DNA of 64,000 bases from a virus (taxonomy: Duplodnaviria > Caudoviricetes): positions 128,001-192,000 of IMG/VR virus record IMGVR_UViG_3300010352_000625. One strand, written 5' to 3'. Positions 13,218 to 53,140 of this stretch are shown piece after piece; the stretch's first letter is position 1, and every line of letters starts with the position of its first letter. Both the position numbers and the translations under genes were made by a program. A model generated the notes under the pieces. It ran no database searches, had not been told where the DNA came from, and saw only the letters and a list, made by a program, of their open reading frames with translations.

Positions 13218-13318
13218 GTGAACTAATTACAGTCTAAAGACTGTAATCTTCCTGATTCATCGACTACAGATTTCGCATAGTCTCCACAGGCTTGAATTCC
13301 CTAGGTATTTGATTTTAT
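13218..13318 (-). mobile_element. Non-autonomous IS200/IS605 right-end (omegaRNA scaffold) derivative
   Basis: Near-identical to 53035-53140, ends GTTCAC and is preceded by TTAC. Confidence 0.9.
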
Positions 13319-13362
13319 GTAACTTAAAATCTAATAAATAGATTTTATTATACAAAAATTAA

Positions 13363-13443
13363 GTTAGATAATTGTTGAAAAACAGATGTTTTCTGTTTAT
13401 AATTTATAAGATTATATGATAACTGTTTTTCTTCGACCCAACA
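13363..13443 (-). ncRNA. Y-RNA-like gene 3
   Basis: 5' GUUGGGUCGAAGAAAAACAGUUAUC (contains GNCGAAG) pairs with 3' CUGUUUUUC-AACAA-UUAUCUAAC. Confidence 0.78.
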
Positions 13444-13455
13444 TATTTATTAAAA

Positions 13456-13670
13456 TTGGCTGGGAAACATTTAAGTTTTACGGGGAAAAACTATCCCCAA
13501 CCCAAATTTACTAAGTTAATGATTGGCGTTATATAGAATGGTAACATAGATAAGACTATATAACATTTGATAGCATAGTACCCGTAAATTCCTGAAGCCA
13601 ACCAATTCAGTATTCCTATTGGTATTGGTGTAAACGATATTATGTCTATGCCCATAATAGGATAAAAAAT
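13456..13670 (-). ncRNA. Unrecognised structured RNA, copy A
   Basis: Paralogous to 13788-14004; identical 27-nt block plus compensatory changes in several helices. Confidence 0.7.
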
Positions 13671-13681
13671 ATTTAAATTAA

Positions 13682-13751
13682 TGGCAGTCGAATGAAGATT
13701 CGAACTCATTATAAATCGCACTTGATTGATAATCGATTACTACGACCCAAC
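13682..13751 (-). ncRNA. Y-RNA-like gene 4 with tRNA-like T-arm and CCA end
   Basis: 5' GUUGGGUCGUAGUAAUCGAUUAUC, then AUGAG-UUCGAAU-CUUCAU, then UCGACUGCCA. Confidence 0.65.
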
Positions 13752-13787
13752 TTATATTATTAACTTATATAAATTTAAAAATTAACT

Positions 13788-14004
13788 AACTTGGGATAAC
13801 TTCAATGAAGTTTTACAATCATTCAGGCGGGGGAGCCAGACCAACCCAAGTTTTTAAAGAACGCTGACATTATATAGAATGATTCATCTAGATAAGACTA
13901 TATAACATTTGATAGTATAGTACCCATAAACTTCTGAGGTCAGCTAACCCAGTACTCTATTATAATAACGATATCATAGCTATACCTACGATAGGATGAA
14001 AAAC
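13788..14004 (-). ncRNA. Unrecognised structured RNA, copy B
   Basis: See copy A; G-U pairs indicate the minus strand. Confidence 0.7.
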
Positions 14005-14187
14005 ATCAATAATTCAATATAGCTGAGTATAGTACACAAAGGAAATGATTTGTAAAAATAAAATGATTGAATTTTTTCGCATTACATAATAATTTACTTT
14101 TTAATTTCTTTATTAATAAAAATAATATTTGATAAGTTTAAAAATTATTTAATATATTCTCTCAGCTATATTGAATTGTCAATGTTC
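14003..14187 (-). other. Long inverted repeat (17 bp perfect, about 27 bp with G-U) enclosing an AU-rich loop
   Basis: AATTCAATATAGCTGAG (14011-14027) / CTCAGCTATATTGAATT (14161-14177). Confidence 0.75.
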
Positions 14188-14198
14188 ATAATTATAAT

Positions 14199-14282
14199 TG
14201 GTGGGAGCGAAGGGAGTCGAACCCTCAAGCCTTGCGGCGAGACATTTTAAGTGTCTTATGTATACCATTCCATCACGCTCCC
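14199..14282 (-). tRNA. tRNA-Leu(UAA)
   Basis: Full cloverleaf with long variable arm, AGACA-CTTAAAA-TGTCT, CCA. Confidence 0.95.
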
Positions 14283-14372
14283 AATATATAATAAAGATTT
14301 ATGTGGGCTAACCAATTTTTGGTTTTACAGGATTTATTACCAAACCCACAAATTTAAGGAATTTAATTATTT

Positions 14373-14714
14373 TTATCCCCAGTATTTATCAGTTCCGTTA
14401 GCAACTACTCTTTTATAATTTTCACATGGGCAAATATTTTTAAGTGACAATGAGGAATTAATATAGCTTTTAAGAAATTTTTCGATATACAGATTACTTC
14501 TCTTATCAGCGTTCATTTTTTCAATAACTTGTTTAATCCAAGAAATTTTCTTTTCTTTAGTTATTGAAAAATCATGATTCAACCAAGATGTTATATTGCT
14601 TACAACATTTTTGTTTATTTCAGTTGATGCAAAATCGATTTTCTTAATAGCATCCCAATTACCGCTTTTAACAAACTTATTGTTTTCATCTCTAAAATTA
14701 AATCTGTAATTCAT
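14373..14714 (-). CDS. Hypothetical protein
   Basis: 113-aa ORF with GAGGAGG RBS downstream of three tandem promoters. Confidence 0.7.
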   Translation of the reverse strand: MNYRFNFRDENNKFVKSGNWDAIKKIDFASTEINKNVVSNITSWLNHDFSITKEKKISWIKQVIEKMNADKRSNLYIEKFLKSYINSSLSLKNICPCENYKRVVANGTDKYWG

Positions 14715-14759
14715 ATCAAATTCCTCCTCATTTCGATTTTTTGTTTGTTCTTGCTTGAT

Positions 14760-14995
14760 ATAAAGAGTATATCATGATATTGTTGGTTTGTCAAGTATTA
14801 ATTTAAAAATTAATTAAAAAATATTTTTTAATTAACTGAGAGTTTTAGTTGTTCTCAGCAACAAACATATTATATCATGTTTTTACTGTTTTGTCAAGTG
14901 TTAATTTTTGTTTATTTTTAATCTTTTTTCGTTTGAGAGTTTTAGTTGTTCTCAGCAACAAACATAGTATATCATAGTTTATATAATTTGTCAAG
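14760..14995 (-). promoter_or_regulatory. Three tandem TTGACA/TG-TATA(A/C)T promoters, two followed by an identical 33-bp leader
   Basis: TTGACA near 14789-14794, 14892-14897 and 14989-14994; repeat at 14837-14869 and 14934-14966. Confidence 0.8.
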
Positions 14996-15018
14996 CACTT
15001 TATTTTTGTAGAGTTTTA

Positions 15019-15792
15019 TTAATTTTTTAAACTAAATTTAATATTCTTTTTTGCTTCTTCAATTCTATTTTGTGCTATATTAAAATAATTTTCATCTAAT
15101 TCAATACCTATAAAATTTCTGTTAGTATTAACGCAAGCTACGCCAGTTGTGCCAGAACCCATACAATTATCTAAAACCAAATCTTCTTCATTGGTATAGG
15201 TCTTAATTAGATATTCCATTAGTGCTACGGGTTTTTGTGTTGGATGAATGGTACTGCCCAATTTTTCTCTATTTATATTTAATATATCACAAGGGTATCT
15301 ATATCCAGTGTCTTCATAGGGCTTAATTGACAAAATAGGAGAATTAGATGCAACCACAGATTTAAACTTGGCATTTTTTTCACTTGGTTTATTTGTTACC
15401 TTTTTACCATTATGTTTAACCATTTGCGGATTATAAGTACATTGCTTTTTATAAAACACACATATATTTTCAGTTAGTTTTCCCACTCTCTTTTTTACTT
15501 GCATAAAATTAGTAGGTTTTTCTTTTACCCAATATATGTCATATTTGTAATCAGATTTATTACTTAATCTTAGTTCACTACTAAATGGCTCTGTTCCAAA
15601 AAGAATGATTGCACCTTTATCTTTAATCACTCTGTTGTATTGCTCCCATAACGGCTCAAAAGGAATTATGATATCCCATTTACATGCTGTAGTTCCGTAT
15701 GGTAAATCACATAAAATCATATCTATTGATTCATCAGAAATATCTTTCATTTTCTCTAGACAATCACCATGCATTAATCTAATCTCAGACAT
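15019..15792 (-). CDS. N6/N4 DNA methyltransferase
   Basis: LCDLPYG, HPTQKP, LDNCMGSGTTG. Confidence 0.93.
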   Translation of the reverse strand: MSEIRLMHGDCLEKMKDISDESIDMILCDLPYGTTACKWDIIIPFEPLWEQYNRVIKDKGAIILFGTEPFSSELRLSNKSDYKYDIYWVKEKPTNFMQVKKRVGKLTENICVFYKKQCTYNPQMVKHNGKKVTNKPSEKNAKFKSVVASNSPILSIKPYEDTGYRYPCDILNINREKLGSTIHPTQKPVALMEYLIKTYTNEEDLVLDNCMGSGTTGVACVNTNRNFIGIELDENYFNIAQNRIEEAKKNIKFSLKN

Positions 15793-15800
15793 TACTTACC

Positions 15801-16553
15801 TCACTTAAATTTAATATTCTTTTTTGCTTCTTCAATTCTATCTTTAGCTATATTAAAATACTTTTCATCTAATTCAATACCGATAAAATTTCTGTTAGTA
15901 TTAACACAAGCTACCCCTGTACTACCTGAACCCATTGTAAAATCAAGAACTAGTTCATTTTCGTTAGTATAGATTTTTATTAGATATTCCATTAGTGTCA
16001 CTGGTTTTTGTGTTGGATGTAAATGACCCTTTCCACTTGGGTTTGAAAAGTTCAACAGACTATCTTGCCAACCAGTATGTGTGGTTTTATGTTCTGTTTT
16101 CCCTGCAACTCCTAGTCTGTGTTGTTCATCATTTCTTAATCTTGCTCTACCAGATTTTATTGGAGTATCAAGTTCTATAAGATTTTGTTGATTAAAAGTT
16201 GGTTGTTTTTCATAGAAAACAAGAATTTCCTCGTGTTTTCTCATGGGCATTTTTTTAGCGTTTTGAAAACCGCTTGATTTTGTTTTTATCCAAGAATAAT
16301 CATACTTAAACATCTTAATATTACTCATAATCAAAGCACTTGTAAAAGGCTGTGAACCGAATAAAACTATAGCCCCGTTAGGTTTAATAACTCTTTTCAA
16401 CTGCTCCCACATCGACTCAAAAGGAATAACACTATCCCATTTACACGCAGTTGTGCCATAAGGTGGGTCTGTTATAATGGCGTCAATTGATACATCAGGG
16501 ATATCTTTCATCTTATCAAGACAATCACCTTGTATCAATCTAACCTCAGACAT
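15801..16553 (-). CDS. N6/N4 DNA methyltransferase (tandem paralog)
   Basis: TDPPYG, HPTQKP, LDFTMGSGSTG. Confidence 0.93.
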   Translation of the reverse strand: MSEVRLIQGDCLDKMKDIPDVSIDAIITDPPYGTTACKWDSVIPFESMWEQLKRVIKPNGAIVLFGSQPFTSALIMSNIKMFKYDYSWIKTKSSGFQNAKKMPMRKHEEILVFYEKQPTFNQQNLIELDTPIKSGRARLRNDEQHRLGVAGKTEHKTTHTGWQDSLLNFSNPSGKGHLHPTQKPVTLMEYLIKIYTNENELVLDFTMGSGSTGVACVNTNRNFIGIELDEKYFNIAKDRIEEAKKNIKFK

Positions 16554-16584
16554 TACTTATCTACCTCACTATTAAATTTAATAT

Positions 16585-16659
16585 TGGAGCACCTTCCCCG
16601 AATTGAACGGGGATCTAATCCTTACCATGGATTTGTAATAACCTTTATACGAAAGATGC
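16585..16659 (-). tRNA. tRNA-Thr(GGU)
   Basis: Cloverleaf, AATCC-ATGGTAA-GGATT, CCA. Confidence 0.88.
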
Positions 16660-16663
16660 TTAT

Positions 16664-16738
16664 CGGATCTGCATAGCTGATTCGAACAGCTGACTAATAC
16701 TTACGAGGTATTTGTTTTTCCAGTTAAACTAATGCAGA
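16664..16738 (-). tRNA. tRNA-Thr(CGU)
   Basis: AATAC-CTCGTAA-GTATT; ends in CCG rather than CCA; U1-A72. Confidence 0.8.
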
Positions 16739-16750
16739 ACATTAACTTAA

Positions 16751-16824
16751 TGGAGCCACTTGGAGGAATCAAACCCCCATCCGAGGTGTACAAAACCCCT
16801 ATAATGTCATTATACGAAAGTGGC
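16751..16824 (-). tRNA. tRNA-Thr(UGU)
   Basis: GGGGT-TTTGTAC-ACCTC, CCA; A19/U56 variant. Confidence 0.88.
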
Positions 16825-16835
16825 AAAAATTTTAA

Positions 16836-16911
16836 TGGCACCAGAGGCTGGATTCAAACCAACATTTCTCAAATTTGGAGTTTGATAGTTTTTCATTTAA
16901 CTTACTCTGGC
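16836..16911 (-). tRNA. tRNA-Trp(CCA)
   Basis: TCAAA-CTCCAAA-TTTGA, GCCA end; A19/U56 variant. Confidence 0.85.
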
Positions 16912-16929
16912 ACATAATTTGAATACATT

Positions 16930-17004
16930 TGGAGAGGATAACCAGAATCGAACTGGCACTCATAATTTGGAAGAATATGCGACTACCGATTATCTTATAT
17001 CCTC
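16930..17004 (-). tRNA. tRNA-Gly(UCC)
   Basis: Loop CTTCCAA, U73 discriminator, CCA; imperfect anticodon stem. Confidence 0.75.
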
Positions 17005-17335: not shown

Positions 17336-17346
17336 ATATTTAATTA

Positions 17347-17420: not shown

Positions 17421-17427
17421 ATAAAAT

Positions 17428-17767: not shown

Positions 17768-17807
17768 TAAAATTTATTTCTCCTTAGTTGAATGAATTAT
17801 TAAAAAA

Positions 17808-17998
17808 TGGGGTGAAGTGAACTAATTACAGTCTAAAGGCTGTAATCTTCCTGATTCATCGACTACAGATTTCATAGTCTCCACAGGCTTGAATTCCCTA
17901 GGTTCCCTAGGTATCTGTCTTAATATTAGTAAGGGAATTAAACCCTCGCCGTTCTGGTTCACAGCCAGACTGTACTTGTCAATTATACGAACAACACC
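17808..17998 (-). pseudogene. tRNA-His(GUG) interrupted by an IS-derived mini element
   Basis: TCTGG-CTGTGAA-CCAGA anticodon arm and G-1; the 3' end TTCACCCCA lies beyond the insertion. Confidence 0.8.
17817..17928 (-). mobile_element. Non-autonomous IS200/IS605 derivative in tRNA-His
   Basis: TTAC|TAATATTAAGACAGA...GTTCAC; matches the ends of 51745-53140. Confidence 0.9.
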
Positions 17999-20734: not shown

Positions 20735-20898
20735 GTGAACTAATTACAGTCTAAAGACTGTAATCTTCCTGATTCATCAACTACAAATTTCATAGTCTCC
20801 ACAGGCTTGAATTCCCTAGGTTCCCTAGGTATTTGATTTTTAATTATTTTTGACATTCATATTACCACCTAAAGACAGTAATCTTTCTGTCTATTTTT
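20735..20898 (-). mobile_element. Complete miniature IS200/IS605 element (left end fused to right end)
   Basis: TTAC|AAAAATAGACAGAAAGATTACTG...GGTGGTAATATGAATGTC joined to the right end ending GTTCAC. Confidence 0.92.
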
Positions 20899-20955: not shown

Positions 20956-21831
20956 TTAATCATCTAATCTATACATTCCAGTTAAATTTTTAAACCATTT
21001 TTCAGATTTATCATAGTATATATTATAATTACTTTCAATTGTTTTATTTTTAAATAATGTATCGATAAATTCTGATTTATCTTTATTATTCATCACAAAA
21101 GCACTGTTTGATTTTTTATTTTTCTGACTATAACCAAATCCATAATTATCTTCATCAGCTATCTTTTTATATGCTACATATTTATCATGCACATTTTTAA
21201 TATTATCAGGAGTGCTAAAATGAATCTGTATAAAAGTATCAGCTAGACTTACATTAGAATCACCATCATTTATATATAATTCAAATTTTACACTACCATC
21301 AGTTGTTTTTTCTACAGCTTTACCAACAATTACTGCCATTTGATTATATTTAATACACCACTCAAAAGCTAATTTTTTAAATTCATCATAATTCATTATT
21401 TTATTGCCATGTCTGTTATAACCAAGTATCATAAAACTTATTTCTTCTGAAGCTGGTTCATAACCTATATCATTCTGTTTCTTATCTGACCAACTACCAG
21501 CTATTTTAACAAAAGATAAATCATTATTAATAATATCAACGACTAATCTTTTTCTCTGCAACTCATTCTGATTTCTGGTATTCTCACTTCGTTCAGCACT
21601 AATAAACATAACAGGTACACCAGAATAAATATGTTCAGCAATTCTAGACATATTAGCAGATAACAAAGATTTTTTAGCTATATAAATATTATCATCTTTA
21701 GTATCAGCAGTTATATTGTTAATAATAGTAAATCTAGAGTTATTAGCTAAATCGTCATTAAGTGATTTCAACTCTTTATATATATTTGCTGTTGCTATAG
21801 TAACATTTAAATTTTTAATGATATCACTCAT
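20956..21831 (-). CDS. Conserved phage protein (paralog of 19269-19895)
   Basis: FISAER..N..N, GSW, EISF, KYNQ. Confidence 0.7.
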   Translation of the reverse strand: MSDIIKNLNVTIATANIYKELKSLNDDLANNSRFTIINNITADTKDDNIYIAKKSLLSANMSRIAEHIYSGVPVMFISAERSENTRNQNELQRKRLVVDIINNDLSFVKIAGSWSDKKQNDIGYEPASEEISFMILGYNRHGNKIMNYDEFKKLAFEWCIKYNQMAVIVGKAVEKTTDGSVKFELYINDGDSNVSLADTFIQIHFSTPDNIKNVHDKYVAYKKIADEDNYGFGYSQKNKKSNSAFVMNNKDKSEFIDTLFKNKTIESNYNIYYDKSEKWFKNLTGMYRLDD

Positions 21832-24036: not shown

Positions 24037-24417
24037 TCAAATTTTATTTCTAAGTATCGTAACTATATCTTCAGTTTTCATTTTATTTTGTGCTACACTC
24101 ATTCCTATATTTACTAATTCGTCTGTTTCAAATTTAACATTATAGTTATTAATTTTAAGTAATACCAACATTATATGTATACCAATTCTTTTGTTACCAT
24201 CAGTGAAAGGATGATTAGTAATAAAAGAATAACACGCTCTAGCTATTTTTTCAATATCACTTTTGTATATTTCTTCATTGAAAGCACCAGCATAAGGCGA
24301 AAAATAAGCTGTCCAAAAAGACATGTTATCTCTAACTTTACCGCTGAACCCACCCGTTTTAGCAGTAATTACTTTATTAAGATTAACAACTTGTTCTTGT
24401 GTTAAATATTTCATCAC
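24037..24417 (-). CDS. doc: Doc/Fic-family toxin
   Basis: HPFTDGNKRIG motif; 126 aa. Confidence 0.88.
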   Translation of the reverse strand: MMKYLTQEQVVNLNKVITAKTGGFSGKVRDNMSFWTAYFSPYAGAFNEEIYKSDIEKIARACYSFITNHPFTDGNKRIGIHIMLVLLKINNYNVKFETDELVNIGMSVAQNKMKTEDIVTILRNKI

Positions 24418-24476
24418 TATTCTCCCAATATAGTATAAGCTTCTATATTATCATCCTTGAGTTTCTAGTCTTTTGT

Positions 24477-25646
24477 TTATTCAAAGGATTTAATTCTGGA
24501 TTCGATATAATCTATTTCATCTTGATCCAAATCGTATTTCGCATAAAGTTGCGTGTCTATATCTGTAATCGTTTTTCCCCAGTCAATATCTGAGTTAGAT
24601 CTGAAATTCTGCTGTGGGACAAAGGAATAAATATTACTTGTTATCACTTGGGCAATTTTTTTGATTCCAAGCATAAATCTGAAGAACTTTGTATTCATAT
24701 ATTTGTTAAGATTCTCTGCCTCTAATCGGTTGTCAAAATCACCAACAGCGATAAGTGTGTTTGAACAAATCGAATTTGGCCTCATAAGAAAAGTTCTTCC
24801 CAAAATCGCTACAGCCTTATCATCAAGCAGGGTTCCTGCGCCGCCATTCATTTTTGATGTAAAAACCTTCCAATGTTTTGACAGTTCTCTATTTCGCTTA
24901 ATTTCATCACTTGATATATATTTCATTTCCCCATAAGCGCAAAGAATCATTGTGTTATGCGTCACATCTGGTGAGGTTGTAGTAATTCTATCTAAAGATG
25001 CATCTATTGCAGGAATACCGAATGGGTTACGTCCAGTCACAATTTTTTCCATTGACTTAAAGTTTTCAGCGGTAACTTTATGTAGAATACTTATCATTCT
25101 ATTCATTGGGAGGACAACATCTAAACCTTTTTCAAAAAGAGGTCTTTCAACAACTGTTTCATTCTTGTTAGAAATCTCAGTAAAAATAATATCTCCTGAA
25201 TACCCATTGTGGTACAGGAAGTAATTTACGCCACCAGGAACACTAACATCACCAAATACATCACTACTGTTTAAATAGTTTACAATGTGGGAAAAATGGT
25301 TGTTATTTCTTAAAAAATTCCTAAGTGTCACAAAAGAACGGTCCTGAGCGTTTCCAGTAAACCACCTTGATGGCGTAATTAATGATAAATATCTGGGTTG
25401 CATCTTAATTACAAGGGTAATAAATGAAGGGTATAGTTGCTTGCTTAGTGACTTATTTTCTTGACCCCCAATATTTTCTTGATATGGTGGATTGCCAACA
25501 ATGGCATCGAATTTTAGCATGTTTTCTTCATCTCTTAGGACTACTTCGTCCTCCATAGTAATTTCATTAAACGACTTATTTTGATTCAACAATAATCTGA
25601 TTTTTTTATAATTAATTTCGTTATCATCGGTTTTGATATTGAGCAA
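24477..25646 (-). CDS. Second Eco57I-type NPPY + target-recognition module (start may be internal, near MLKFDAIVGNPPY)
   Basis: FDAIVGNPPYQ, ITPSRW; paralogous to 22791-23834. Confidence 0.85.
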   Translation of the reverse strand: MLNIKTDDNEINYKKIRLLLNQNKSFNEITMEDEVVLRDEENMLKFDAIVGNPPYQENIGGQENKSLSKQLYPSFITLVIKMQPRYLSLITPSRWFTGNAQDRSFVTLRNFLRNNNHFSHIVNYLNSSDVFGDVSVPGGVNYFLYHNGYSGDIIFTEISNKNETVVERPLFEKGLDVVLPMNRMISILHKVTAENFKSMEKIVTGRNPFGIPAIDASLDRITTTSPDVTHNTMILCAYGEMKYISSDEIKRNRELSKHWKVFTSKMNGGAGTLLDDKAVAILGRTFLMRPNSICSNTLIAVGDFDNRLEAENLNKYMNTKFFRFMLGIKKIAQVITSNIYSFVPQQNFRSNSDIDWGKTITDIDTQLYAKYDLDQDEIDYIESRIKSFE

Positions 25647-25689
25647 ATAGATTATCGAGTAATTCTAAATTTCTCATGAGATCCTTCAT

Positions 25690-26679
25690 TTATTTTTTAT
25701 TGAGTAAAGAAACAAATTTAATTTCTTTACTTACACCCCAATCCATAACCTTGCAATAAATCCCTGAATGAAGGAGCGGGTCGTTTTTTGCACATCCCTC
25801 ACAAGGCGTGTTCTCTATGGGTGCATCGAAAAGACTCAATTGAACAAAATTACTGTTTTTATTTTTACAACTATTTGGGACTACAAATTTTAATCCGTCC
25901 ATTTGCCAGATGTTCCACGAAATGACAAAGGCAATATTTAATAGTAGTTCTTCACATGGCTCATAATGGAATTTATTTATATAATAGTCGATAAATGTAC
26001 ACAATAAATTTTCTCTTGCTAATAGAACATTATCTCCCTGCCAGTCATAGCCATAAATACTTTTATACGCCTTGTATGCCCAATTTAGCCATTCTTCTTT
26101 ATCACTTACATTTTCAGATAACACACGCAATTTTCTATCAAGAAGGCCTATTCGTTCAGATATTTCAATATATTGTCCGATTACAGTATCATAGCGACTA
26201 ACCAAATACGGTGCTTCTCCACAACATATTTCAAGCCGTGACTCGAGTACATAATCTTTCCAAGTCTTCCCGCTTTTGGTTGGAAATTTAATTGGCTCAT
26301 GTATCGAATCCCAAGAATTTTCTTTCCCGATATTAAAAACATGCTTTTGTCCAAACCACTCATAATCTATAAGATTATTCTGTTTGTTACATACCCAAGA
26401 AGGTGTAAAGACTTCGGCTTTTTCACGAATACGCATAATTTGGTTTTCTTTCGTTTTTTCAGTCCTCGGTTTCACTATGTCACGATAGAATCCAGTTACA
26501 GAGTCAATTGTGATTTGATCATCGAAATTAAATTGATTACCATGAACAGAATAATTATTTGTAGCCCAAATAATGTTCTTTTTTGTGGTCTCATCTTTAA
26601 GGAGAATTTCCAGTACGTTTGGACTGAATTCTTTATTCTTTTCTTCAATAAAATTCATTGTATAATTCAGCATTTTCAA
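25690..26679 (-). CDS. R-M methyltransferase SAM-binding subunit
   Basis: KAEVFTP (motif X), LEICCGEAPY (motif I), YGYDWQGDN, WQMDGL; no NPPY. Confidence 0.82.
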   Translation of the reverse strand: MKMLNYTMNFIEEKNKEFSPNVLEILLKDETTKKNIIWATNNYSVHGNQFNFDDQITIDSVTGFYRDIVKPRTEKTKENQIMRIREKAEVFTPSWVCNKQNNLIDYEWFGQKHVFNIGKENSWDSIHEPIKFPTKSGKTWKDYVLESRLEICCGEAPYLVSRYDTVIGQYIEISERIGLLDRKLRVLSENVSDKEEWLNWAYKAYKSIYGYDWQGDNVLLARENLLCTFIDYYINKFHYEPCEELLLNIAFVISWNIWQMDGLKFVVPNSCKNKNSNFVQLSLFDAPIENTPCEGCAKNDPLLHSGIYCKVMDWGVSKEIKFVSLLNKK

Positions 26680-26722
26680 TCCTCCAGCTTTATCTGAATC
26701 AAAAGTTGCTCACATAGGTGAA

Positions 26723-26782
26723 TATGAAATCTGTAGTCGATGAATCAGGAAGATTACAGTCTAAAGACTGTAATTAGTTCAC
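26723..26782 (+). mobile_element. Truncated IS200/IS605 right-end derivative
   Basis: Matches the last ~60 bp of the tnpB element, ending GTTCAC. Confidence 0.88.
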
Positions 26783-26919
26783 TATTCTCCCAATATAATA
26801 TAGACTTCTATGTTATTATCAATTATTTCATTAGATATAATATCAATTTTTATATCATCTAAGAATTCTGTTTCATAAGCTACTATCAAATGCATTTCCA
26901 TATCATTTACAGATACCAT
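26782..26919 (-). CDS. Small acidic protein, putative Doc antitoxin
   Basis: Manual translation MVSVND...IIDNNIEVYIILGE*; its 3' end is duplicated immediately before doc. Confidence 0.5.
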   Translation of the reverse strand: MVSVNDMEMHLIVAYETEFLDDIKIDIISNEIIDNNIEVYIILGE

Positions 26920-38811: not shown

Positions 38812-39182
38812 TGGTGGAGTTAGGGGGAATCGAACCCCCGTCCAGATAAAATTTGTTCAGATTATCTACAAGTTTAGTTATTGTTAATTATTTTTAAAGT
38901 ATATAGCAATAACAAATATACTTATGATATATACAGTCTAAGTGAACTAATTACAGTCTAAAGGCAGTAATCTTTCTGTCTAAGTATAACTGTAACAATA
39001 CTATAAGCGTTGCTGAACTGTATTATACTGACTTCTAAACTAGTTTACAGCTTATCATTTAGGTCAGTACGGTTATGCCGCTAAAGCAAATTCGTTATTT
39101 GTTTTTTGTTGACAACTTTAAGGTGATTGTCTTCCCACTTGCAAATCTGTTTTAGTTTTATCGGTCGAAACCAATTAACCCC
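38812..39182 (-). ncRNA. ssrA: tmRNA
   Basis: 5' GGGGTTA...GGTTTCGAC, tag frame ...KTNNEFALAA*, 3' GGACGGGGGTTCGATTCCCCCTAACTCCACCA with G3.U70. Confidence 0.95.
38942..38991 (-). mobile_element. Ultra-short (about 41-50 bp) left/right-end fusion of the IS inside tmRNA
   Basis: TAGACAGAAAGATTACTGCCTTTAG (left end) joined to ACTGTAATTAGTTCAC (right end). Confidence 0.85.
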
Positions 39183-46032: not shown

Positions 46033-48066
46033 TTATCTTTTTTCTATATTATTGACAAAATATTTGTAATAAACTTGTTTATTTTCTTCTAAATCATCAG
46101 TTAATTTAATCAATTCCAGATATTCATTAGATGTTTTGTCATATCTTGGTATCATTTCTTTTTTTATAAAATTTATAATATTACAAAAATATATTGCATG
46201 ATCACGTAAGTCACTAGAATACTTTACTTCATTATTCATTATATTATCCATATCCATCATTTTCTGTAATTTAGATATCATATCTTCATATTCCGCACCA
46301 ATAGAATCAAAATCTAACCCAATATCAGACATATTTTTTCTTATTTCTTGTTCTAATTTATTATGTTTCTGTAATGCATTATTATCATGATATTCTTCAG
46401 ATTTCCACCATAATTCATTTAATATTTTTAATTTATCAATAATATCTTTTATTTTTCCTTCTCTATCATCATTATCAATTATATTAGATTCTTCTAGTGC
46501 ATTGTTATTACTTAATAGTTTTTCGGCAACTTTGTCTAAAGCAGAATTAATTTCATCTACTGATAAATATTTTTTCCATTTATTATATAATCTCAATTTC
46601 AGTCCATCAGGAAGTAATTTAAATATTTTTAACCCACTACCATCAAAAGTTTTATTTTTATTGCCTTTATTCATGTATTTATAAAAATATTTTTCATCAA
46701 TTTTCTTTTTTTCATTATTAACTGCATTATATAATTCTTGAAAATCTACATCAGACATTTTCATATTATCATTATCAATTATATTAGATTCTTCTACTGC
46801 TATTTCTTTTTTGTTGGGGTTATATAATTTATCTGCTCCAGATTCTCTAACTATAACAGCATCACCAGACGGATTTATATGAATCATATAAGACATACTA
46901 TTACTTATTCCCTTGTAGCCGTGGTATTCAATACCATCAATAACTTCAGGAGTATTTAATCTCATAACTTCATCTAAATATATTCTATGTTTAAAATAAT
47001 CAACATAAGGTCTAGTTTCATCACTATCTGAATCTTCGACATATTCATATTCTATAGGTATATAATAATCTTCAATATCTTCTGGTACAGTATTACTTAC
47101 TATAGTACTTTCTTCTAGTACATTTCTGATAATTTCATCTAACAACGCACTCACGCCCTCACTATATGCGTTAATCTCCTCATCTATGGCGATTTCTTTT
47201 ATAGTTTGAAAAATAGAAGGAAATTCGTTGATTAAAATTTCATATGTTGTTGCTCCCAACATGTGTTTTTCTTTTTCCTCCTTTATCCGCATCTTTAAGG
47301 TTTTCTTTTGATCCCCTGCATAGTCCAATGCGAGGCTGTCGAGGTCTTGAACGCAATCTGTCCAGTCCCACGCCGAAAACGTGGTGATGCAGAGGTCAGT
47401 ACCGTTCCACGTGGATTCAGGTTCACTGTAATTTCCCACATATGTCCAAGTGTACAATTTTCCGCTTGGCTCAATCGCTAGTCCCTTGTGTACGTTCTGG
47501 TTAGTGCCTTCACACTCCCGATATAAGTCAACCATTTTTTCTTCTATTGCATCGCGGTTATCTTCCAAAACTTTTTTCCAGTTTGTTTCATCATCATTAT
47601 CAATTATATTAGATTCTTCCAATATATTGTCCATATCAGAAGGTTCTATTTCTATATTATCTTCAGGTTCAATTATTCCAGTAACTTTAAATTTTTTAAC
47701 TAATGCAAAAAATTCTCTAGTAAGCAAATTCCAATATAATTTATCAACTTGTTCATCTGAATACTTTGAAGATTCTTCACTACTCTGGTCAAACCAATAT
47801 TCTATTTTTGCTCTCATATCAAAATAAGAATAATCAAACTGTAAAGGCAGTCCTTTTAACCATTCTATAAATGCATTATATTCTCCAATTTGTCTAATCT
47901 TCCAACTAAATTGGTCTTTAAATTCAGCATAAACACAATTAAGTGCAGAAGCTGTATCAGTATAATTTTCTATCTCATATTCTTCTGCATATTGTTGTGC
48001 CGCTTCTATAATTTCTTTTCTGATTCTTTCTTTTACTTCTCTTTGCATTGATATTTTAATACCCAT
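46033..48066 (-). CDS. Modular acidic polyprotein with repeated EESNIIDND linkers
   Basis: (L/V)EESNIIDND three times plus LEESTIVSN; internal EPSDMD motif; C-terminal PRYD..S.EY domain. Confidence 0.75.
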   Translation of the reverse strand: MGIKISMQREVKERIRKEIIEAAQQYAEEYEIENYTDTASALNCVYAEFKDQFSWKIRQIGEYNAFIEWLKGLPLQFDYSYFDMRAKIEYWFDQSSEESSKYSDEQVDKLYWNLLTREFFALVKKFKVTGIIEPEDNIEIEPSDMDNILEESNIIDNDDETNWKKVLEDNRDAIEEKMVDLYRECEGTNQNVHKGLAIEPSGKLYTWTYVGNYSEPESTWNGTDLCITTFSAWDWTDCVQDLDSLALDYAGDQKKTLKMRIKEEKEKHMLGATTYEILINEFPSIFQTIKEIAIDEEINAYSEGVSALLDEIIRNVLEESTIVSNTVPEDIEDYYIPIEYEYVEDSDSDETRPYVDYFKHRIYLDEVMRLNTPEVIDGIEYHGYKGISNSMSYMIHINPSGDAVIVRESGADKLYNPNKKEIAVEESNIIDNDNMKMSDVDFQELYNAVNNEKKKIDEKYFYKYMNKGNKNKTFDGSGLKIFKLLPDGLKLRLYNKWKKYLSVDEINSALDKVAEKLLSNNNALEESNIIDNDDREGKIKDIIDKLKILNELWWKSEEYHDNNALQKHNKLEQEIRKNMSDIGLDFDSIGAEYEDMISKLQKMMDMDNIMNNEVKYSSDLRDHAIYFCNIINFIKKEMIPRYDKTSNEYLELIKLTDDLEENKQVYYKYFVNNIEKR

Positions 48067-49100: not shown

Positions 49101-50102
49101 CTAATTTACTGCAAATTCTACATCCATTACTTCATCATCTTCTGTTACTGTAAGCTTGTTCTTTTTCTTTAGGTCAGATACAAGGTCATCAATACTAGAT
49201 TCCCAGTAAAACTTTGTAGCAAACATCTTAGTAATGCCAGCACCCAAATCTATCTTCTTCGTGTCAGCGTTAATAGCTCTAGTAGGAGTATAATCATGAG
49301 TTATAGCTTCAGTGCAGGCATTGTAAAAACCCCACTTCGTATAATCAAAATTATTATCAAGTCTGTTAGCAATCATCTTACTAACTCTCTTAGGAATATA
49401 ATTCAACAAAAGTTCAACCCTATCTTCTGTTACGGATTGAGTTGTCCAATTTCTCCAATTAAGAGAGTAGCTACGAAAACCATTGATAAGTTGATGAGCA
49501 TTATGACTAAATTCATTAAGATTAAATTTACTACCAAAATGCTTATAAGACATTGACATAAACTGTCTAGTAGCAATCATTCCATTAGTACAAACAAGTC
49601 TAACAGCATCAATATAAAATCCTACTGCCTGACTTCCATCATAGCTATTTACTATACGTATCATAGGTGAAATTTCATCGCCGGGTCTTACTTCAACACT
49701 ATAATCTTTAATAGTATACAGACGTGTCATTAGGGAACCATCTTTTGAAAGTATAGTCTGAATATCAGTATTGTTAAAAGACATACCTTCTTCTATCTTC
49801 TGAACAATATCCCCATGCTTAATCACAGGATATGAACTGGAAACTGTAGCAAGATACACGGGTTTACCGGAATTATCTTCTCTGAACAATGCTTTCTTGT
49901 CTGGTATTTCAATGCCATCAAAAGAAAGTTTGCGTTCCATTACATCAAAATTTAGCTTTGACCTATCAGGACCTGACCAACTATCTGTTACAAACATACC
50001 ATACTTTGCTCTCCTTGCAATTTCTGTTCGATTATTTCTTACGCCACTATCATTAAATTTTACCGTCATTTTAATATCCCCCTTTAATTTTGTGTTGCTC
50101 AT
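49101..50102 (-). CDS. DUF932-family protein
   Basis: NSYDGS, RLVCTNGM, KH, TKWG.YNA.TE. Confidence 0.85.
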   Translation of the reverse strand: MSNTKLKGDIKMTVKFNDSGVRNNRTEIARRAKYGMFVTDSWSGPDRSKLNFDVMERKLSFDGIEIPDKKALFREDNSGKPVYLATVSSSYPVIKHGDIVQKIEEGMSFNNTDIQTILSKDGSLMTRLYTIKDYSVEVRPGDEISPMIRIVNSYDGSQAVGFYIDAVRLVCTNGMIATRQFMSMSYKHFGSKFNLNEFSHNAHQLINGFRSYSLNWRNWTTQSVTEDRVELLLNYIPKRVSKMIANRLDNNFDYTKWGFYNACTEAITHDYTPTRAINADTKKIDLGAGITKMFATKFYWESSIDDLVSDLKKKNKLTVTEDDEVMDVEFAVN

Positions 50103-50180
50103 TCAATAAATATATTATATCATTATTTAGAGATAAAAGCAAGTTGTCCTAAAGTATACAAATTTTATTTTGTTTAATAT

Positions 50181-50441
50181 TTAAAAAAATCTATCTGCTA
50201 TCTGTTGTTTATTGAAAACTTCACCAGTCATTTGGTAAATAAATTCTTTAATATGTCTTAGTGTTGTATTACTATAAAACTCATTAACTGTTATTTTTTC
50301 TTTTATTCTATCATATTTAGCAACAATTGTTGAATAACTCATAAGTTCAATTATATTATCATCGGTGTATATCAATTTAGCTTTTTCATAAAAACTCTTT
50401 CTTTTATCAAGTTGCGTATTCATATTTGATGTTATTATCAT
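50181..50441 (-). CDS. Hypothetical phage protein (start uncertain)
   Basis: KSFYEKA, LMSYSTIVA, YS.TTLRHIKEF. Confidence 0.6.
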   Translation of the reverse strand: MIITSNMNTQLDKRKSFYEKAKLIYTDDNIIELMSYSTIVAKYDRIKEKITVNEFYSNTTLRHIKEFIYQMTGEVFNKQQIADRFF

Positions 50442-50466
50442 TATCTTATTCTTCTTTGATTTATAA

Positions 50467-50988
50467 TTATTCAGAATAATATAGCACGCCGTTTGATACT
50501 TCGTAATAGTTACCATCTAACATCATATCTCTACCCATATTATCAAAATCTATATAATACTTAATTGAATCAGGAATATCAAAACATTCATCTACATATT
50601 CTTTGGCAACTTGTGCCATAGACATACCTGAATAAAGAGTCCATTTATCAACTGTATTATCATTAATCATTTCAATAATATCATTAACACTGTTTATAGT
50701 GTAATAATCTGATTCAAGTATAGAATCTAATACTTCCTGCTTATAGCCATCCATAAAATTATAAGCATCCTGTAATTCTACATAATCTTCTATTGTATCA
50801 TCTTCATCAAAAAAATCTACTTCTATTGTATCAAAATCAGCTCTTAAAATAGTATAATTAACATCTTCTATATCTTCTTCAGTGATACCAATTTCATTTA
50901 GTTTAATATAATCTTCTCGATAAAGGTCAACACTTACCCAACACTGCTCATCATTAGTGTTATTTTTAATCAAAACTTGAATTTCCAT
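50467..50988 (-). CDS. ardA: ArdA-like anti-restriction (DNA mimic) protein
   Basis: Very acidic; C-terminal M..VA.EYVDE..DIP..I.YYIDF...GRD...G.Y. Confidence 0.75.
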   Translation of the reverse strand: MEIQVLIKNNTNDEQCWVSVDLYREDYIKLNEIGITEEDIEDVNYTILRADFDTIEVDFFDEDDTIEDYVELQDAYNFMDGYKQEVLDSILESDYYTINSVNDIIEMINDNTVDKWTLYSGMSMAQVAKEYVDECFDIPDSIKYYIDFDNMGRDMMLDGNYYEVSNGVLYYSE

Positions 50989-51012
50989 TATTTTAATCTC
51001 CTTTAAATTGTT

Positions 51013-51288
51013 TTAAATAAATGGCATATAAATTTCATCTTTGAACTCATCGACAATCTTTTTTGCAAGTTTACAGGTCTGTTCGTTTCTCAGGTCATAC
51101 CAACCTTTATCGTACATTTCAGCCCAAAGCTTCATACACTCCATCATTACTGCCATAGAACTCTGCTGAAGTGTTCTATGTGTATTATAACAGATCTTTT
51201 CAGCAAATTCCTTGTGTCTACTAGTATCAAAACTATTTACAAAATCTGAAAAAGTATTTGCCATTTCTTCGCCTGTCATTTTAGCCAT
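51013..51288 (-). CDS. Hypothetical phage protein
   Basis: HRTLQQS, YDLRNE motifs; promoter and RBS. Confidence 0.65.
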   Translation of the reverse strand: MAKMTGEEMANTFSDFVNSFDTSRHKEFAEKICYNTHRTLQQSSMAVMMECMKLWAEMYDKGWYDLRNEQTCKLAKKIVDEFKDEIYMPFI

Positions 51289-51744
51289 TTTGTTTTTTAT
51301 CTCCTTCAGTTGTAATCAGTATTGTTATCTCTCTCAATCAATAAATATATTATATCACATTTTAGAGATAAACACAAGTCTTTTTATTTGTAACAATATT
51401 AATAAATATATACATAAAGTTTATATTTATTTAATTGGTTTTCTAGCTTTTCTATTTTGTGTATGATAATAATTTCTATAATAACTAATACTACGAAGAT
51501 TGAATATCACCAAAAAAAAAACAGTTATTAACATGCATATAATTATAATAAACATTTATTCACCAAATTTCTCAATACATTCAGGAAGTCTCTGATAAGC
51601 ATGTATGTAACGATTAAACAAAGTACATATATAATCCAAATGTTCTAGTTCAAAATAATGACAATTAGTACATTTTTTACCACAAGGAATTTTAACTTTA
51701 ACATATATAAATTTATCAGACATTAAAAAATCACACTTTTTTAC

Positions 51745-53140
51745 TAAAATAGACAGAAAGATTACTGCCTTTAGGTGGTAATATGAATGTCTATAAATTT
51801 TAACTTCATATAAGTTAAAAATATATAAACAAAATGTAATTTAATAATAAAGAAGGTGAATCTATTTTGACTGCAAGTACTGTTTCTAAAAATCAAAATA
51901 TTAAAAAAACTATGAAAGAAACTATGACTAGAAGAACTAGCCAGTCTTGTGGTGTTTATAAAGTCAAAATAGACGAATCTAGACTTTCTAAAAAACAAAA
52001 AGAGCAAATTAAAATGATATTTGTTGAAGCAAAATGGTTTTATAATAATATTTTAAGTTGGTCTGAAAATCACGATATTAATGATTTTGATACTAAAACT
52101 AAATTTGTTAATATTTTAAATAAAAATAAAGAAATTGAAACTAGAGAATTAAAAAATATTGGTTCTCAAATGAAACAAGCAATACATACTGGCGTTATAT
52201 CTGCTATTAAAACTTTGTCAACTTTAAAGAAAAAGGGGCATAAAGTTGGAAAACTTAAATATTTGTCGGATTATAAATCTATTAATTTAAAACAGTTTGG
52301 AACTACATATCAAATACTTAATACTAAATATATGAAGATTCAAAACATATCTGGTAAAGTCAAAGTCAACGGTTTGGATCAATTTATTAATGACCCTGAT
52401 ATTGAATTTGCTAATGCTAAGATTCTAAATACTCCGTCTGGATATTATGTTGCAATAACTACTTATCGATATAATGACGATTTGGCACTTAAATCATATT
52501 TAGGTTCTGAAATTGGTATTGATATGGGAATCAAAGATTCAATCATTCTTTCTAATGGTGAAAAATTTAAAGCATCTATTGAAGAAACTGAACATTTAAA
52601 ATGTTTGCAAAGAAAACTAGCGAGACAGAAAAAAGGTTCTAACAATAGAAGAAAAACTATTTTCAAGATTCAGAAAGAATATCAAAAAATATCAAATCGA
52701 AAAAATGATATTTCAAATAAAATCACAAGTCATATTTTATCATATGAGCATATCTATATGCAAGACGAGATGATATCTGGTTGGCATAAAGGATTATTTG
52801 GAAAACAGGTTCAACATTCTATTTTAGGCCGAGTAAAAGCTAAATTAATAAATCATTCTAGAGTTGAAGTGTTAGATCGTTCAGTTCCAACAACTAAATA
52901 TTGTCCTTGTTGTGGCAACATCAATAAAAATATCACCTTGGCTGACAGAACTTATATTTGCCCAACATGCGGTTATCAAGAAGACCGAGATATTCATTCT
53001 GCTAAAAATATGATATTGATGACTAAAATAATTAAAAATCAAATACCTAGGGAACCTAGGGAATTCAAGCCTGTGGAGACTATGAACCTTGTAGCCGTTG
53101 AAGCAGGAAGATTACAGTCTTTAGACTGTAATTAGTTCAC
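51745..53140 (+). mobile_element. IS200/IS605-family element carrying tnpB only
   Basis: Inserted after TTAC; subterminal hairpins ATTACTGCCTTTAGGTGGTAAT (left) and ATTACAGTCTTTAGACTGTAAT (right); ends TTCAC; no tnpA. Confidence 0.9.
51867..53135 (+). CDS. tnpB: RNA-guided endonuclease TnpB
   Basis: RuvC-I IGIDMGIK, RuvC-II QDE, zinc finger CPCCG/CPTCG, RuvC-III DRDIHSAKN. Confidence 0.92.
   Translation: MTASTVSKNQNIKKTMKETMTRRTSQSCGVYKVKIDESRLSKKQKEQIKMIFVEAKWFYNNILSWSENHDINDFDTKTKFVNILNKNKEIETRELKNIGSQMKQAIHTGVISAIKTLSTLKKKGHKVGKLKYLSDYKSINLKQFGTTYQILNTKYMKIQNISGKVKVNGLDQFINDPDIEFANAKILNTPSGYYVAITTYRYNDDLALKSYLGSEIGIDMGIKDSIILSNGEKFKASIEETEHLKCLQRKLARQKKGSNNRRKTIFKIQKEYQKISNRKNDISNKITSHILSYEHIYMQDEMISGWHKGLFGKQVQHSILGRVKAKLINHSRVEVLDRSVPTTKYCPCCGNINKNITLADRTYICPTCGYQEDRDIHSAKNMILMTKIIKNQIPREPREFKPVETMNLVAVEAGRLQSLDCN

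What the first reader, a model, noticed from the sequence alone, without database searches (positions are those of the whole stretch)
13218..53140. One tnpB plus five dispersed miniature elements: a possible multi-guide TnpB repertoire
Seen: the full element (51745-53140) has derivatives at 13218, 17817, 20735, 26723 and 38942. All end precisely at GTTCAC, and those with an intact left junction follow TTAC. Three retain most of the right-end scaffold, each with a different 3' flank (ATAAAATAATG, TTCACCCCATT, ATATGCACCCA; the truncated 26723 copy has TATTCTCCCAA). Known: TnpB omegaRNA is the right end plus about 16-20 nt of flank as guide, and the TAM equals the insertion motif. Inference: a single TnpB could be loaded in trans with several guides that cut insertion-free alleles of co-infecting sister phages. 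Several copies sit in highly transcribed RNA operons.
Basis: partly seen in the sequence, partly recalled or inferred. Interest (0 to 1): 0.7.

Follow-up and report, generated by a model that had tools for sequence, protein, structure and literature searches.

The report
Phage TnpB with scattered guide-RNA cassettes

Summary
The window lies in a complete 206,669-bp virus record. It holds one tnpB-only IS608-like element (51745-53140) and five minis; a sixth lies outside the window. All end at the same right-end terminus, and all with a left junction follow TTAC. No tnpA exists in the genome.

A covariance model finds four complete omegaRNA scaffolds, one lacking its first hairpin (13218) and two remnants (26723, 38942). 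Related phage contigs supply empty and occupied alleles. These fix the insertion point 3' of TTAC. In one pair, a relative's mini has a guide identical to another relative's empty site.

TnpB has Q at the canonical RuvC-II glutamate. The QDE motif is invariant across the family, and dN/dS is 0.15-0.39.

The multi-guide reading is plausible but unproven, and it has already been proposed for PATE elements.

New details:
- Minis interrupt the phage's only tRNA-His gene, its tmRNA gene and a 62-aa ORF.
- Three window minis derive from a different subfamily than the resident tnpB.
- Left junctions often duplicate 4-38 nt of the right flank, which IS200/IS605 elements are not supposed to do.
- One right-end remnant bounds a 2.3-kb methyltransferase block.

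The parts
51741..51744 (+). TTAC left-flank cleavage site, the inferred TAM of the full element
   Evidence: Insertion 3' of TTAC is confirmed by empty/occupied alleles.
51745..53140 (+). Full tnpB-only IS200/IS605 (IS608-like) element. It has a 6-nt variable linker (51745-51750), and conserved sequence starts at 51751.
   Evidence: It is 98.4% identical to the copy at another site in relative L018.
51867..53135 (+). tnpB, 422 aa. RuvC-I is D219, RuvC-II is Q299-D300-E301, the zinc finger has 4 Cys, and RuvC-III is D373-R-D.
   Evidence: Pfam, PDB alignments, family alignment A1, dN/dS 0.15-0.39.
53036..53140 (+). omegaRNA scaffold of the full element. It overlaps the tnpB 3' end and the right end.
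   Evidence: R1 score 128 bits; consensus fold with covariation.
53141..53160 (+). Predicted cis guide, i.e. the right flank
   Evidence: Position relative to the right end; unique in the genome. Inferred.
20735..20898 (-). MITE/PATE-like mini with a left-end hairpin and a complete scaffold. It interrupts a 62-aa ORF that is intact in relatives L168 and L169.
   Evidence: R1 score 127 bits.
17817..17928 (-). Mini with a complete scaffold and a deleted left hairpin. It sits between positions 67 and 68 of the only tRNA-His gene.
   Evidence: Rfam tRNA hit at 17929-17992 covering model positions 6-65; R1 score 121 bits; fold of the sequence with the element removed in silico; no other tRNA-His.
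17929..17998 (-). 5' part of tRNA-His (anticodon GTG). The 3' acceptor strand and CCA lie at 17805-17816, beyond the mini.
13218..13318 (-). Mini without a left end, lacking the 5' arm of scaffold stem 1. Seven nt of its right flank are repeated after TTAC. It lies between a Ro60 gene and the RNA array upstream of it.
   Evidence: R1 score 101 bits; Ro60 by Pfam.
26717..26782 (+). 66-nt right-end remnant that forms the right edge of a 2.3-kb block absent from relatives
   Evidence: R1 score 46 bits.
24456..26716 (-). Block absent from L168 and L169. It holds a 389-aa ORF with an Eco57I-type methyltransferase domain and a 329-aa ORF with no family.
24418..24455 (+). 38-nt duplicate of the right flank (26783-26820). 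It follows TCAC, which reads TTAC in the empty alleles.
38942..38991 (-). 50-nt micro-element (hybrid of the left and right hairpins) inside the tmRNA gene
   Evidence: R1 score 22 bits.
38812..39182 (-). tmRNA gene that hosts the micro-element in its pseudoknot region
   Evidence: Rfam RF00023, 97 bits.

Best explanation
This is a non-autonomous, tnpB-only IS200/IS605 element of the IS608 type, together with its gene-less decay products (PATE/MITE-like minis). The family circulates in a lineage of about 200-kb AT-rich phages from anaerobic digesters and sludge. SHOWN: The elements have similar hairpins near both ends, in the same orientation. They sit exactly 3' of TTAC and end in TCAC. The last ~100 nt fold into a conserved omegaRNA scaffold, followed directly by unique flank. 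Four copies in this genome keep the whole scaffold and one keeps most of it. Minis arose in three ways: by internal deletion at microhomology (left end plus ~115 nt of right end), by recombination between the two hairpins (40-50-nt micro-elements), and as 5'-truncated, right-end-only copies. INFERRED: TnpB made from the single gene can bind scaffold RNAs transcribed from the minis. Five of the six minis are co-oriented with the surrounding genes and RNA genes. Each resulting RNP would recognise TTAC plus the flank, which is the insertion-free allele of that locus in a co-infecting relative. Cutting that allele and repairing it from the occupied genome would copy the mini, and neighbouring DNA, into the rival genome. 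This is TnpA-independent 'non-restorative homing'. New sites need a Y1 TnpA supplied from outside the phage. The exact right junctions contrast with ragged left junctions (flank duplications of 4-38 nt, one 16-nt deletion, 5' truncations). This pattern suggests that many copies were laid down by break repair or one-ended strand transfer rather than by clean peel-and-paste.
For: Identity: Pfam hits. PDB hits to TnpB structures, including 8IAZ and ISDra2 TnpB. Repeats and termini. No Y1 transposase in the complete genome and a single tnpB.

Insertion site and TAM: this genome is empty where L018, L054/55/87, L083/57/78 and L075 are occupied. L168 and L169 are empty where minis 20735 and 26723 sit.

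Scaffold: the consensus fold has 31 pairs, 4 with compensatory changes. The RAGATH-18 core hit scores 31.2 and 27.8 bits, below the 44.9 gathering score; that motif is the reRNA core of active IS607 TnpBs (PMC11061315). The R1 inventory gives 121-128 bits for four copies and 101 bits for 13218.

Protein under selection: dN/dS is 0.15-0.39 among six phage-borne copies. YMQDE, the zinc finger and DRD are invariant in 24 homologues at 51-100% identity.

Natural guide/target pair: the flank of mini L061 is identical over more than 60 nt to the sequence after TTAC in the empty allele L168. The flank of 26723 matches L168 at 15 of 16 positions after TTAC.

Recombination footprint: next to the 26723 right end there are 10 mismatches to L168 in 81 nt, then 1 in 160 nt. 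At 20735 the left flank is about 97% identical to L168 and the right flank about 74%.

Left-junction duplications: 10 of 25 copies repeat at least 4 nt and 7 of 25 at least 6 nt. The null rate is 1%, and no permutation in 20,000 reached the observed counts.

Prior art for trans use and phage homing: PMC10055086, PMC13565253.
Against: Nuclease activity is unknown: Q occupies the canonical RuvC-II glutamate position in alignments to three TnpB structures.

Three window minis belong to another subfamily than the resident tnpB, so compatibility is assumed; the proteins are about 90% alike.

The 20735 guide of this genome has 5 of 16 mismatches to the only known empty allele. No empty allele was found for 13218, 17817, 38942 or the full copy.

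All four sites that are empty in this genome differ from the cognate TAM or protospacer. That fits drive resistance, but also plain divergence.

Identity steps at element borders could reflect ordinary phage mosaicism.
Confidence: 0.6

Rival explanations
1. The minis are inert debris. A host- or helper-encoded Y1 TnpA moved elements into the phage, deletions then eroded them, and none of their RNAs is used by TnpB. The shared exact right end only reflects TnpA chemistry.
For: Two of six minis lack any usable scaffold and one lacks a hairpin. Three stem from a subfamily whose tnpB is not in this genome. They disrupt a tRNA-His gene, a small ORF and sit in the tmRNA, as expected for selfish insertions. 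Identical linkers at different sites (L069/L072, L063/L074, L068/L076) show classical transposition.
Against: Four scaffolds score as high as the tnpB-linked one although they are free of coding constraint. Minis are orthologous in relatives only about 80% identical in the flank (L061 v this genome), so scaffolds persist. Flank duplications and co-conversion-like gradients are not expected from clean TnpA transposition.
Confidence: 0.3
2. TnpB(QDE) is nuclease-dead. It acts as an RNA-guided DNA binder (TldR-like repressor or roadblock), with the minis supplying extra guides for regulation.
For: Q replaces the canonical RuvC-II glutamate, and E-to-Q is a classic inactivating change. Minis lie in RNA operons.
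Against: QDE is invariant in a family that is multi-copy and mobile in phages and in Synergistaceae MAGs. RuvC-I D, RuvC-III DRD, the zinc finger and the full C-terminus are kept, unlike TldRs (PMC10705468, abstract only read). RuvC-II-rearranged clades are predicted active and some are virus-enriched (PMC10691335). No guide has a second match with TTAC in the genome, so there is no regulatory target.
Confidence: 0.08
3. The right end alone is a mobile or recombinogenic module. One-ended strand transfer by a Y1 transposase joins the right end to a TTAC target. The broken left side is then sealed by templated, microhomology-primed repair. This creates right-end-only minis, flank duplications and occasional capture of neighbouring DNA such as the 2.3-kb methyltransferase block. 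TnpB plays no part.
For: Right junctions are always exact, whereas left junctions carry 0-38-nt flank duplications, a 16-nt deletion or 5' truncation. Joints fall at 1-5-nt microhomologies near the left terminus or inside the right end. Two right-end-only copies with the same 5' boundary sit at different sites (L056, L057).
Against: No TnpA is available in the phage. The divergence gradient on the right flank of 26723 implies import of flank DNA from another genome, which direct ligation to the recipient's own flank would not give. The literature describes no TSDs for this family (PMC13565253).
Confidence: 0.25

Closest known systems
IS608 (Helicobacter pylori), IS200/IS605 family
   Same: It inserts 3' of TTAC. 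It has hairpins near both ends, in the same orientation. The tetranucleotide 5' of the left hairpin (AAAG) fits TTAC, and GAAG 5' of the right hairpin fits the TCAC terminus by the same rule. The tnpB gene lies next to the right end.
   Different: There is no tnpA. TnpB has QDE instead of the canonical RuvC-II glutamate. The linker between TTAC and the conserved left end varies (6-10 nt). Many copies duplicate the flank. The host is a phage genome.
PATE-like non-autonomous elements of Geobacillus stearothermophilus (Meers et al., PMC10055086)
   Same: [quoted passage not shown]
   Different: Here they sit in a phage with a single tnpB and no TnpA. Some lack the left end altogether. Some sit inside RNA genes. 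Natural empty alleles in related phages are available.
ISFba1 IS607 TnpB with RAGATH-18-derived reRNA (PMC11061315; PDB 8IAZ)
   Same: 8IAZ was the second-best solved-structure hit (E 7e-18). The scaffold core resembles the RAGATH-18 motif.
   Different: The match is below Rfam's gathering score, with a 6-nt instead of a ~37-nt internal segment. The TAM is TTAC, not AGGAG. The ends are of the hairpin (Y1) type, not IS607 type. ISFba1 has a canonical E290.
Free-standing homing endonucleases of T-even phages (SegB, SegF; reviewed in PMC13565253)
   Same: They act on related co-infecting phages, co-convert flanking markers and are located in tRNA gene regions. This is what the system would work like.
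   Different: Target recognition would be by RNA guide plus TAM, and several loci could be served by one protein. This is a functional analogy only; there is no homology.
TldR, nuclease-dead TnpB-like repressors (PMC10705468)
   Same: TnpB homologues with altered RuvC residues that use right-end-derived guides.
   Different: TldRs are immobilised and have guides against host promoters. This protein is full length, mobile, under purifying selection, and its guides match only their own flanks.

Membership tests
IS200/IS605 (IS608-like, tnpB-only/IS1341 group) | Similar imperfect hairpins near both ends in the same orientation, and no terminal inverted repeats | tested here: met
   The left hairpin at 51760-51782 and the right hairpin at 53110-53132 are alike. 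Micro-elements are hybrids of the two.
IS200/IS605 (IS608-like, tnpB-only/IS1341 group) | Insertion immediately 3' of a fixed tetra- or pentanucleotide | tested here: met
   TTAC precedes all copies that have a left junction. Six empty/occupied allele pairs confirm the insertion point.
IS200/IS605 (IS608-like, tnpB-only/IS1341 group) | No target-site duplication | tested here: not met
   Ten of 25 distinct copies repeat 4-12 nt of the right flank after TTAC, against a null rate of 1%, and one repeats 38 nt. The other copies show none. The duplication is real relative to the empty alleles.
IS200/IS605 (IS608-like, tnpB-only/IS1341 group) | Y1 HUH transposase TnpA, in cis or in trans | tested here: not met
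   PF01797 is absent from the complete 206,669-bp genome. The element is therefore non-autonomous, as most tnpB elements are (PMC10055086). Y1 genes exist in Synergistaceae MAGs that carry the same TnpB clade, but not adjacent to it.
TnpB RNA-guided nuclease (OMEGA) | OrfB_IS605 RuvC fold plus a zinc-ribbon TNB domain | tested here: met
   Pfam PF01385 and PF07282 hits above cut-off. Matches to TnpB structures.
TnpB RNA-guided nuclease (OMEGA) | The D-E-D RuvC catalytic triad | tested here: inconclusive
   D219 and D373 are present. Q299 sits at the canonical E position, and E301 two residues later is invariant. Rearranged RuvC-II clades are described (PMC10691335), but membership and activity were not tested.
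TnpB RNA-guided nuclease (OMEGA) | A structured omegaRNA that overlaps the tnpB 3' end and the right end, with the guide being the flank | tested here: met
   Covariation at 4 pairs. Covariance-model hits only at element right ends. RAGATH-18-like core. Use of the flank as guide is inferred.
PATE/MITE derivatives with trans-acting omegaRNA | Gene-less copies that keep the transposon ends and an intact scaffold | tested here: met
   20735 and G000:113160-113323 keep both ends. 17817 keeps the scaffold only. 13218 is partial.
PATE/MITE derivatives with trans-acting omegaRNA | The RNA is expressed and loaded by a TnpB encoded elsewhere | not testable with these tools
Only co-orientation with transcription units and nearby promoter-like sites is available.
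RAGATH-18 (RF03064) / IS607 TnpB reRNA | A score at or above Rfam's gathering threshold | tested here: not met
   31.2 and 27.8 bits against a threshold of 44.9. The resident full copy gave no hit at E<=1.

The most novel reading that the evidence does not exclude
The phage lineage runs a distributed RNA-guided gene drive. One TnpB is served by several right-end-only guide cassettes. It cuts insertion-free alleles of co-infecting relatives, and repair copies the cassette plus adjacent DNA (for example the 2.3-kb methyltransferase block) into them. The flank duplications beside TTAC, the 5' truncations and the right-flank co-conversion tracts would be the repair scars. The TAM or protospacer changes at all four sites that are empty in this genome would be drive-resistant alleles. 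TnpA would not be needed for spread between genomes.
Probability: 0.3. Interest if true: 0.75.

Novelty: new variant of a known kind. Interest (0 to 1): 0.5.

Why it matters
If TnpB really uses mini-encoded guides in a lytic phage, it would be a natural, multiplexed, programmable homing system acting between competing viruses. That is a role so far only proposed on paper for TnpB. The material here makes it directly testable. It offers a single small nuclease, defined ~100-nt scaffolds, a simple TAM, and natural occupied and empty alleles in related phages, including one exact guide-target pair. The ragged left junctions contradict the textbook 'no target duplication' rule for IS200/IS605. They could reveal how these elements are copied when no transposase is present. 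If it is not true, the locus is an ordinary case of IS decay in a phage, with a disrupted tRNA-His gene and an insertion in the tmRNA gene.

Tried and rejected
- The GenBank phage collection gave no relative by blastn.
- Exact-pattern scans of IMG/VR for empty alleles of the tRNA-His and tmRNA sites found nothing.
- Contigs carrying the identical neighbour protein were 100% identical to this genome and all occupied.
- No tRNA-His was found in any fetched relative.
- ARAGORN does not call a tRNA-His after the mini is removed in silico. The reconstructed sequence still folds into a cloverleaf with the 8-bp G-1:C73 acceptor stem and CCA, but with two U-U mismatches.
- ARAGORN finds no tmRNA with or without the micro-element, so only the Rfam call stands.
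- IS607 membership was rejected. The ends are hairpin-type with TTAC, not IS607-type, and the RAGATH-18 hit is below threshold.
- A group I intron (IStron) rescue of the interrupted RNA genes was considered and rejected: no intron family was found by Rfam, and the inserts are only 50 and 112 nt.
- Y1 transposase genes in Synergistaceae genomes are not adjacent to QDE tnpB genes, so no cognate TnpA was identified.
- A first script for flank-divergence profiles used non-unique anchors and was redone. The left-flank value for 26723 is still wrong and is not used.
- No structure prediction was run, because the tools return no coordinates with which to judge whether E301 reaches the active site.


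Full report
**1. Context**

The window is G000:128001-192000 of a single 206,669-bp IMG/VR virus record that CheckV rates 100% complete. G+C is 27.5%. Nearly all genes in the region lie on the minus strand. They include 20 or more tRNA genes, a tmRNA (Rfam, 97 bits) and a Ro60 (TROVE plus vWA) gene. Near-identical and 70-95% related contigs come from anaerobic-digester and activated-sludge metagenomes.

**2.

The repeat finder, BLAST and motif scans recover the full element at 51745-53140 (+). They also recover minis at 13218, 17817, 20735 and 38942 (all -) and at 26717-26782 (+).

A sixth mini of 164 nt, with both ends, lies outside the window at G000:113160-113323. Every copy ends in the same 12-nt terminus closing with GTTCAC. 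Every copy with a left junction follows TTAC.

The ORF at 51867-53135 (422 aa) hits OrfB_IS605 and the Cas12f1-like TNB zinc ribbon. It also aligns to solved TnpB structures. There is one tnpB and no Y1 transposase in the whole genome.

**3. Element boundaries, from empty sites**

Four sites that are occupied in related contigs are empty in this genome:
- L018 carries a full element, 98.4% identical to the resident one, in a phage background that is 91% identical.
- L054/55/87 carry a MITE.
- L083 and L057/78 are occupied at a third site.
- L075 is occupied at a fourth.

Conversely, contigs L168 and L169 (93-94% identical) are empty where minis 20735 and 26723 sit.

In every pair the right end abuts the base that follows TTAC in the empty allele. 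This proves the insertion point and supports TTAC as the TAM.

The tetranucleotides 5' of the hairpin feet (AAAG on the left, GAAG on the right) fit TTAC and TCAC by the IS608 rule. I recall that rule from the IS608 literature; an earlier scan note states it too. PMC13565253 confirms TTAC as the IS608 target.

The conserved element starts 6-10 nt after TTAC. The intervening linker differs between copies.

**4. The right end is an omegaRNA scaffold**

Twenty distinct copies align over ~105 nt. Their consensus fold has 31 pairs, four of them with compensatory double changes. The fold comprises a 5' hairpin, a long-range closing helix next to the guide, an internal helix and the terminal hairpin.

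The internal part gives sub-threshold hits to Rfam RAGATH-18: 31.2 and 27.8 bits against a gathering score of 44.9. The resident full copy gave no hit at E<=1. That motif is the core of the reRNA of active IS607 TnpBs such as ISFba1 (PMC11061315), whose structure 8IAZ is the second-best PDB match of this TnpB. Membership of RAGATH-18 is not claimed.

A covariance model built from the alignment finds nothing else in the genome and ranks the copies as follows:

| Copy | Score (bits) |
|---|---|
| Full element | 128 |
| 20735 | 127 |
| Copy outside the window | 123 |
| 17817 | 121 |
| 13218 (5' arm of the first hairpin lost) | 101 |
| 26723 | 46 |
| 38942 | 22 |

The genome therefore holds four complete guide cassettes and one doubtful one, not six.

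**5. Is TnpB functional?**

Alignments to three TnpB structures put Q299 at the RuvC-II glutamate. The motif YMQDE is invariant in 24 homologues at 51-100% identity. So are D219, the four zinc-finger cysteines and the DRD of RuvC-III.

The same clade is multi-copy in Synergistaceae and Fretibacterium MAGs, where the right-end terminus is conserved. Six phage-borne copies show dN/dS of 0.15-0.39.

Altae-Tran et al. describe several TnpB clades with rearranged RuvC-II sites. They predict these to be active because the rearrangement is conserved, and some are virus-enriched (PMC10691335). E301, two residues on, is a candidate replacement; this is inference only. The protein is clearly under selection, but nuclease activity is not shown.

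**6. How the minis arose**

Three routes are visible.
- MITEs: about 45 nt of left end joined to about 115 nt of right end at a short similarity between the two regions.
- Micro-elements of 40-50 nt whose single hairpin is half left-end and half right-end. At one site a relative has the MITE (L073) and another the micro form (L077) with the same linker, which shows decay in place.
- Right-end-only copies (13218, L057, L056, L075, L058, 26723) truncated at different 5' points.

Minis 17817 and 20735 differ from an L071-type full element by 2-3 positions, but from the resident full copy by 6-7. Mini 13218 shows the same ranking (11 v 16, including its deletion). Only the copy outside the window matches the resident one, with 3 mismatches.

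**7. An unexpected feature: ragged left junctions**

IS200/IS605 elements are said to make no target duplication (PMC13565253). The data here disagree.
- In 10 of 25 distinct copies, the bases after the flank TTAC repeat the first 4-12 nt of the right flank. Seven copies repeat at least 6 nt. Mismatched pairs do so in 1% of cases, and none of 20,000 permutations reached the observed counts.
- The empty alleles hold the repeated stretch once, so these are true duplications.
- The joint to the element falls at 1-5 nt of microhomology, either just before the conserved left end or, in truncated copies, inside the right end.
- Two linkers equal the right flank of a different site: 17817 matches the L070 site, and L054 matches the G000:113k site. 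Identical linkers also occur at unrelated sites. A linker is therefore created at one site and later carried along by ordinary transposition.
- At 20735 the left side instead lost 16 nt, lying between two TTACs.

Right junctions are always exact.

**8. The 26723 remnant**

Relative to L168 and L169, this genome has an extra 2.3 kb (24456-26782). The block encodes a 389-aa ORF with an Eco57I-type methyltransferase domain and a 329-aa ORF with no family hit.

The block ends in the 66-nt right-end remnant. It is preceded by a 38-nt duplicate of the right flank that follows TCAC, which reads TTAC in the empty alleles. The duplicate is identical to L168.

The true right flank has 10 mismatches to L168 in its first 81 nt and 1 in the next 160. 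This looks like a co-conversion tract from a more distant donor.

At 20735 identity to L168 drops from about 97% on the left to about 74% on the right of the element. These patterns fit break repair from another genome. Ordinary phage mosaicism is not excluded.

**9. Guides and targets**

No guide has a second full match in the genome.

A relative's mini (L061, orthologous to 20735) has a flank identical over more than 60 nt to the sequence after TTAC in the empty allele L168. A natural guide-target pair therefore exists for a gene-less cassette.

This genome's own 20735 flank differs from that allele at 5 of 16 positions. The 26723 flank matches 15 of 16, but its scaffold is dead.

The four sites that are empty in this genome all differ from the cognate TAM (three cases) or protospacer (4-7 of 20). 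This is suggestive of resistance, but it is not significant against 3-12% background divergence.

**10. What the minis hit**

- **17817.** It splits the only tRNA-His gene. Rfam matches model positions 6-65 at 28.7 bits, ending exactly at TTAC. After the mini is removed in silico, the sequence folds into a cloverleaf with the His-specific G-1:C73 pair and CCA, but with two U-U mismatches. ARAGORN does not call it.
- **38942.** It lies in the pseudoknot region of the tmRNA, about 75 nt after the tag stop.
- **20735.** It truncates a 62-aa hydrophobic ORF after 13 codons.
- **13218.**
- **A relative.** Another MITE (L072) sits beside a tRNA gene, apparently within a degenerate tRNA 3' remnant; this was read by eye and not tested.

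Five of six minis are co-oriented with local transcription, and strong promoter-like sites lie upstream. Expression is inferred, not shown.

**11. Comparison with what is known**

The element is an IS608-like, tnpB-only member of IS200/IS605, with PATE-like derivatives. Meers et al. already wrote that PATEs often encode omegaRNAs that must be used in trans (PMC10055086). A 2026 review lists homing into co-infecting phages as a theoretical mode and cites TnpA-independent spread among plasmids (PMC13565253).

The parts that differ from the known picture are:
- the lytic-phage setting with one tnpB and no tnpA;
- the QDE site;
- a RAGATH-18-like core in a hairpin-ended TTAC element;
- right-end-only cassettes;
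- the flank duplications;
- a right-end remnant bounding a gene block.

**12. Verdict**

I rate the locus a new variant of a known kind, with moderate interest.

Noticed in passing
window 11179-12813 (-) and 13456-14004: A phage-encoded Ro60 protein (TROVE plus Ro60 vWA domains, Pfam E 1e-41 to 1e-63). Mini 13218 sits between the two.
   Followed up: partly
window 38812-39182 (-): A phage tmRNA (Rfam, 97 bits) that ARAGORN misses both with and without the 50-nt insert. Its tag frame appears to end in ...ALAA.
   Followed up: partly
window 5963-61104, many sites on the minus strand: Families of 40-60-nt repeats (D2, D4, D7, D11) that contain near-consensus -35/-10 hexamers. They are probably the phage's own promoter classes.
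   Followed up: no
window 14600-16600: Repeats of 229-257 nt (D1, D3) correspond to two adjacent N6_N4 methyltransferase genes, as called on the identical contigs L171 and L172.
   Followed up: no
L056:5853-6100 (-) and L080: In a relative, a right-end-only copy follows directly after the right end of a second, diverged element family that has the same 8-nt terminus. This is either a tandem arrangement or use of TCAC as a target.
   Followed up: no
L089-L167 (genome contigs): The QDE TnpB clade is multi-copy in Synergistaceae and Fretibacterium MAGs (50-56% identity). There the right-end terminus is conserved, but the left-flank motif looks like TTATC rather than TTAC, and most copies share one linker.
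   Followed up: partly
window 46412-47630 and 55587-55722: Exact 41-136-nt repeats (D10, D12) lie inside coding regions.
   Followed up: no
window 24037-24417 (-) and 20956-21831 (-): Fic/DOC-family and S-AdoMet-lyase-family genes flank the mini-containing region. These are candidate anti-defence genes.
   Followed up: no
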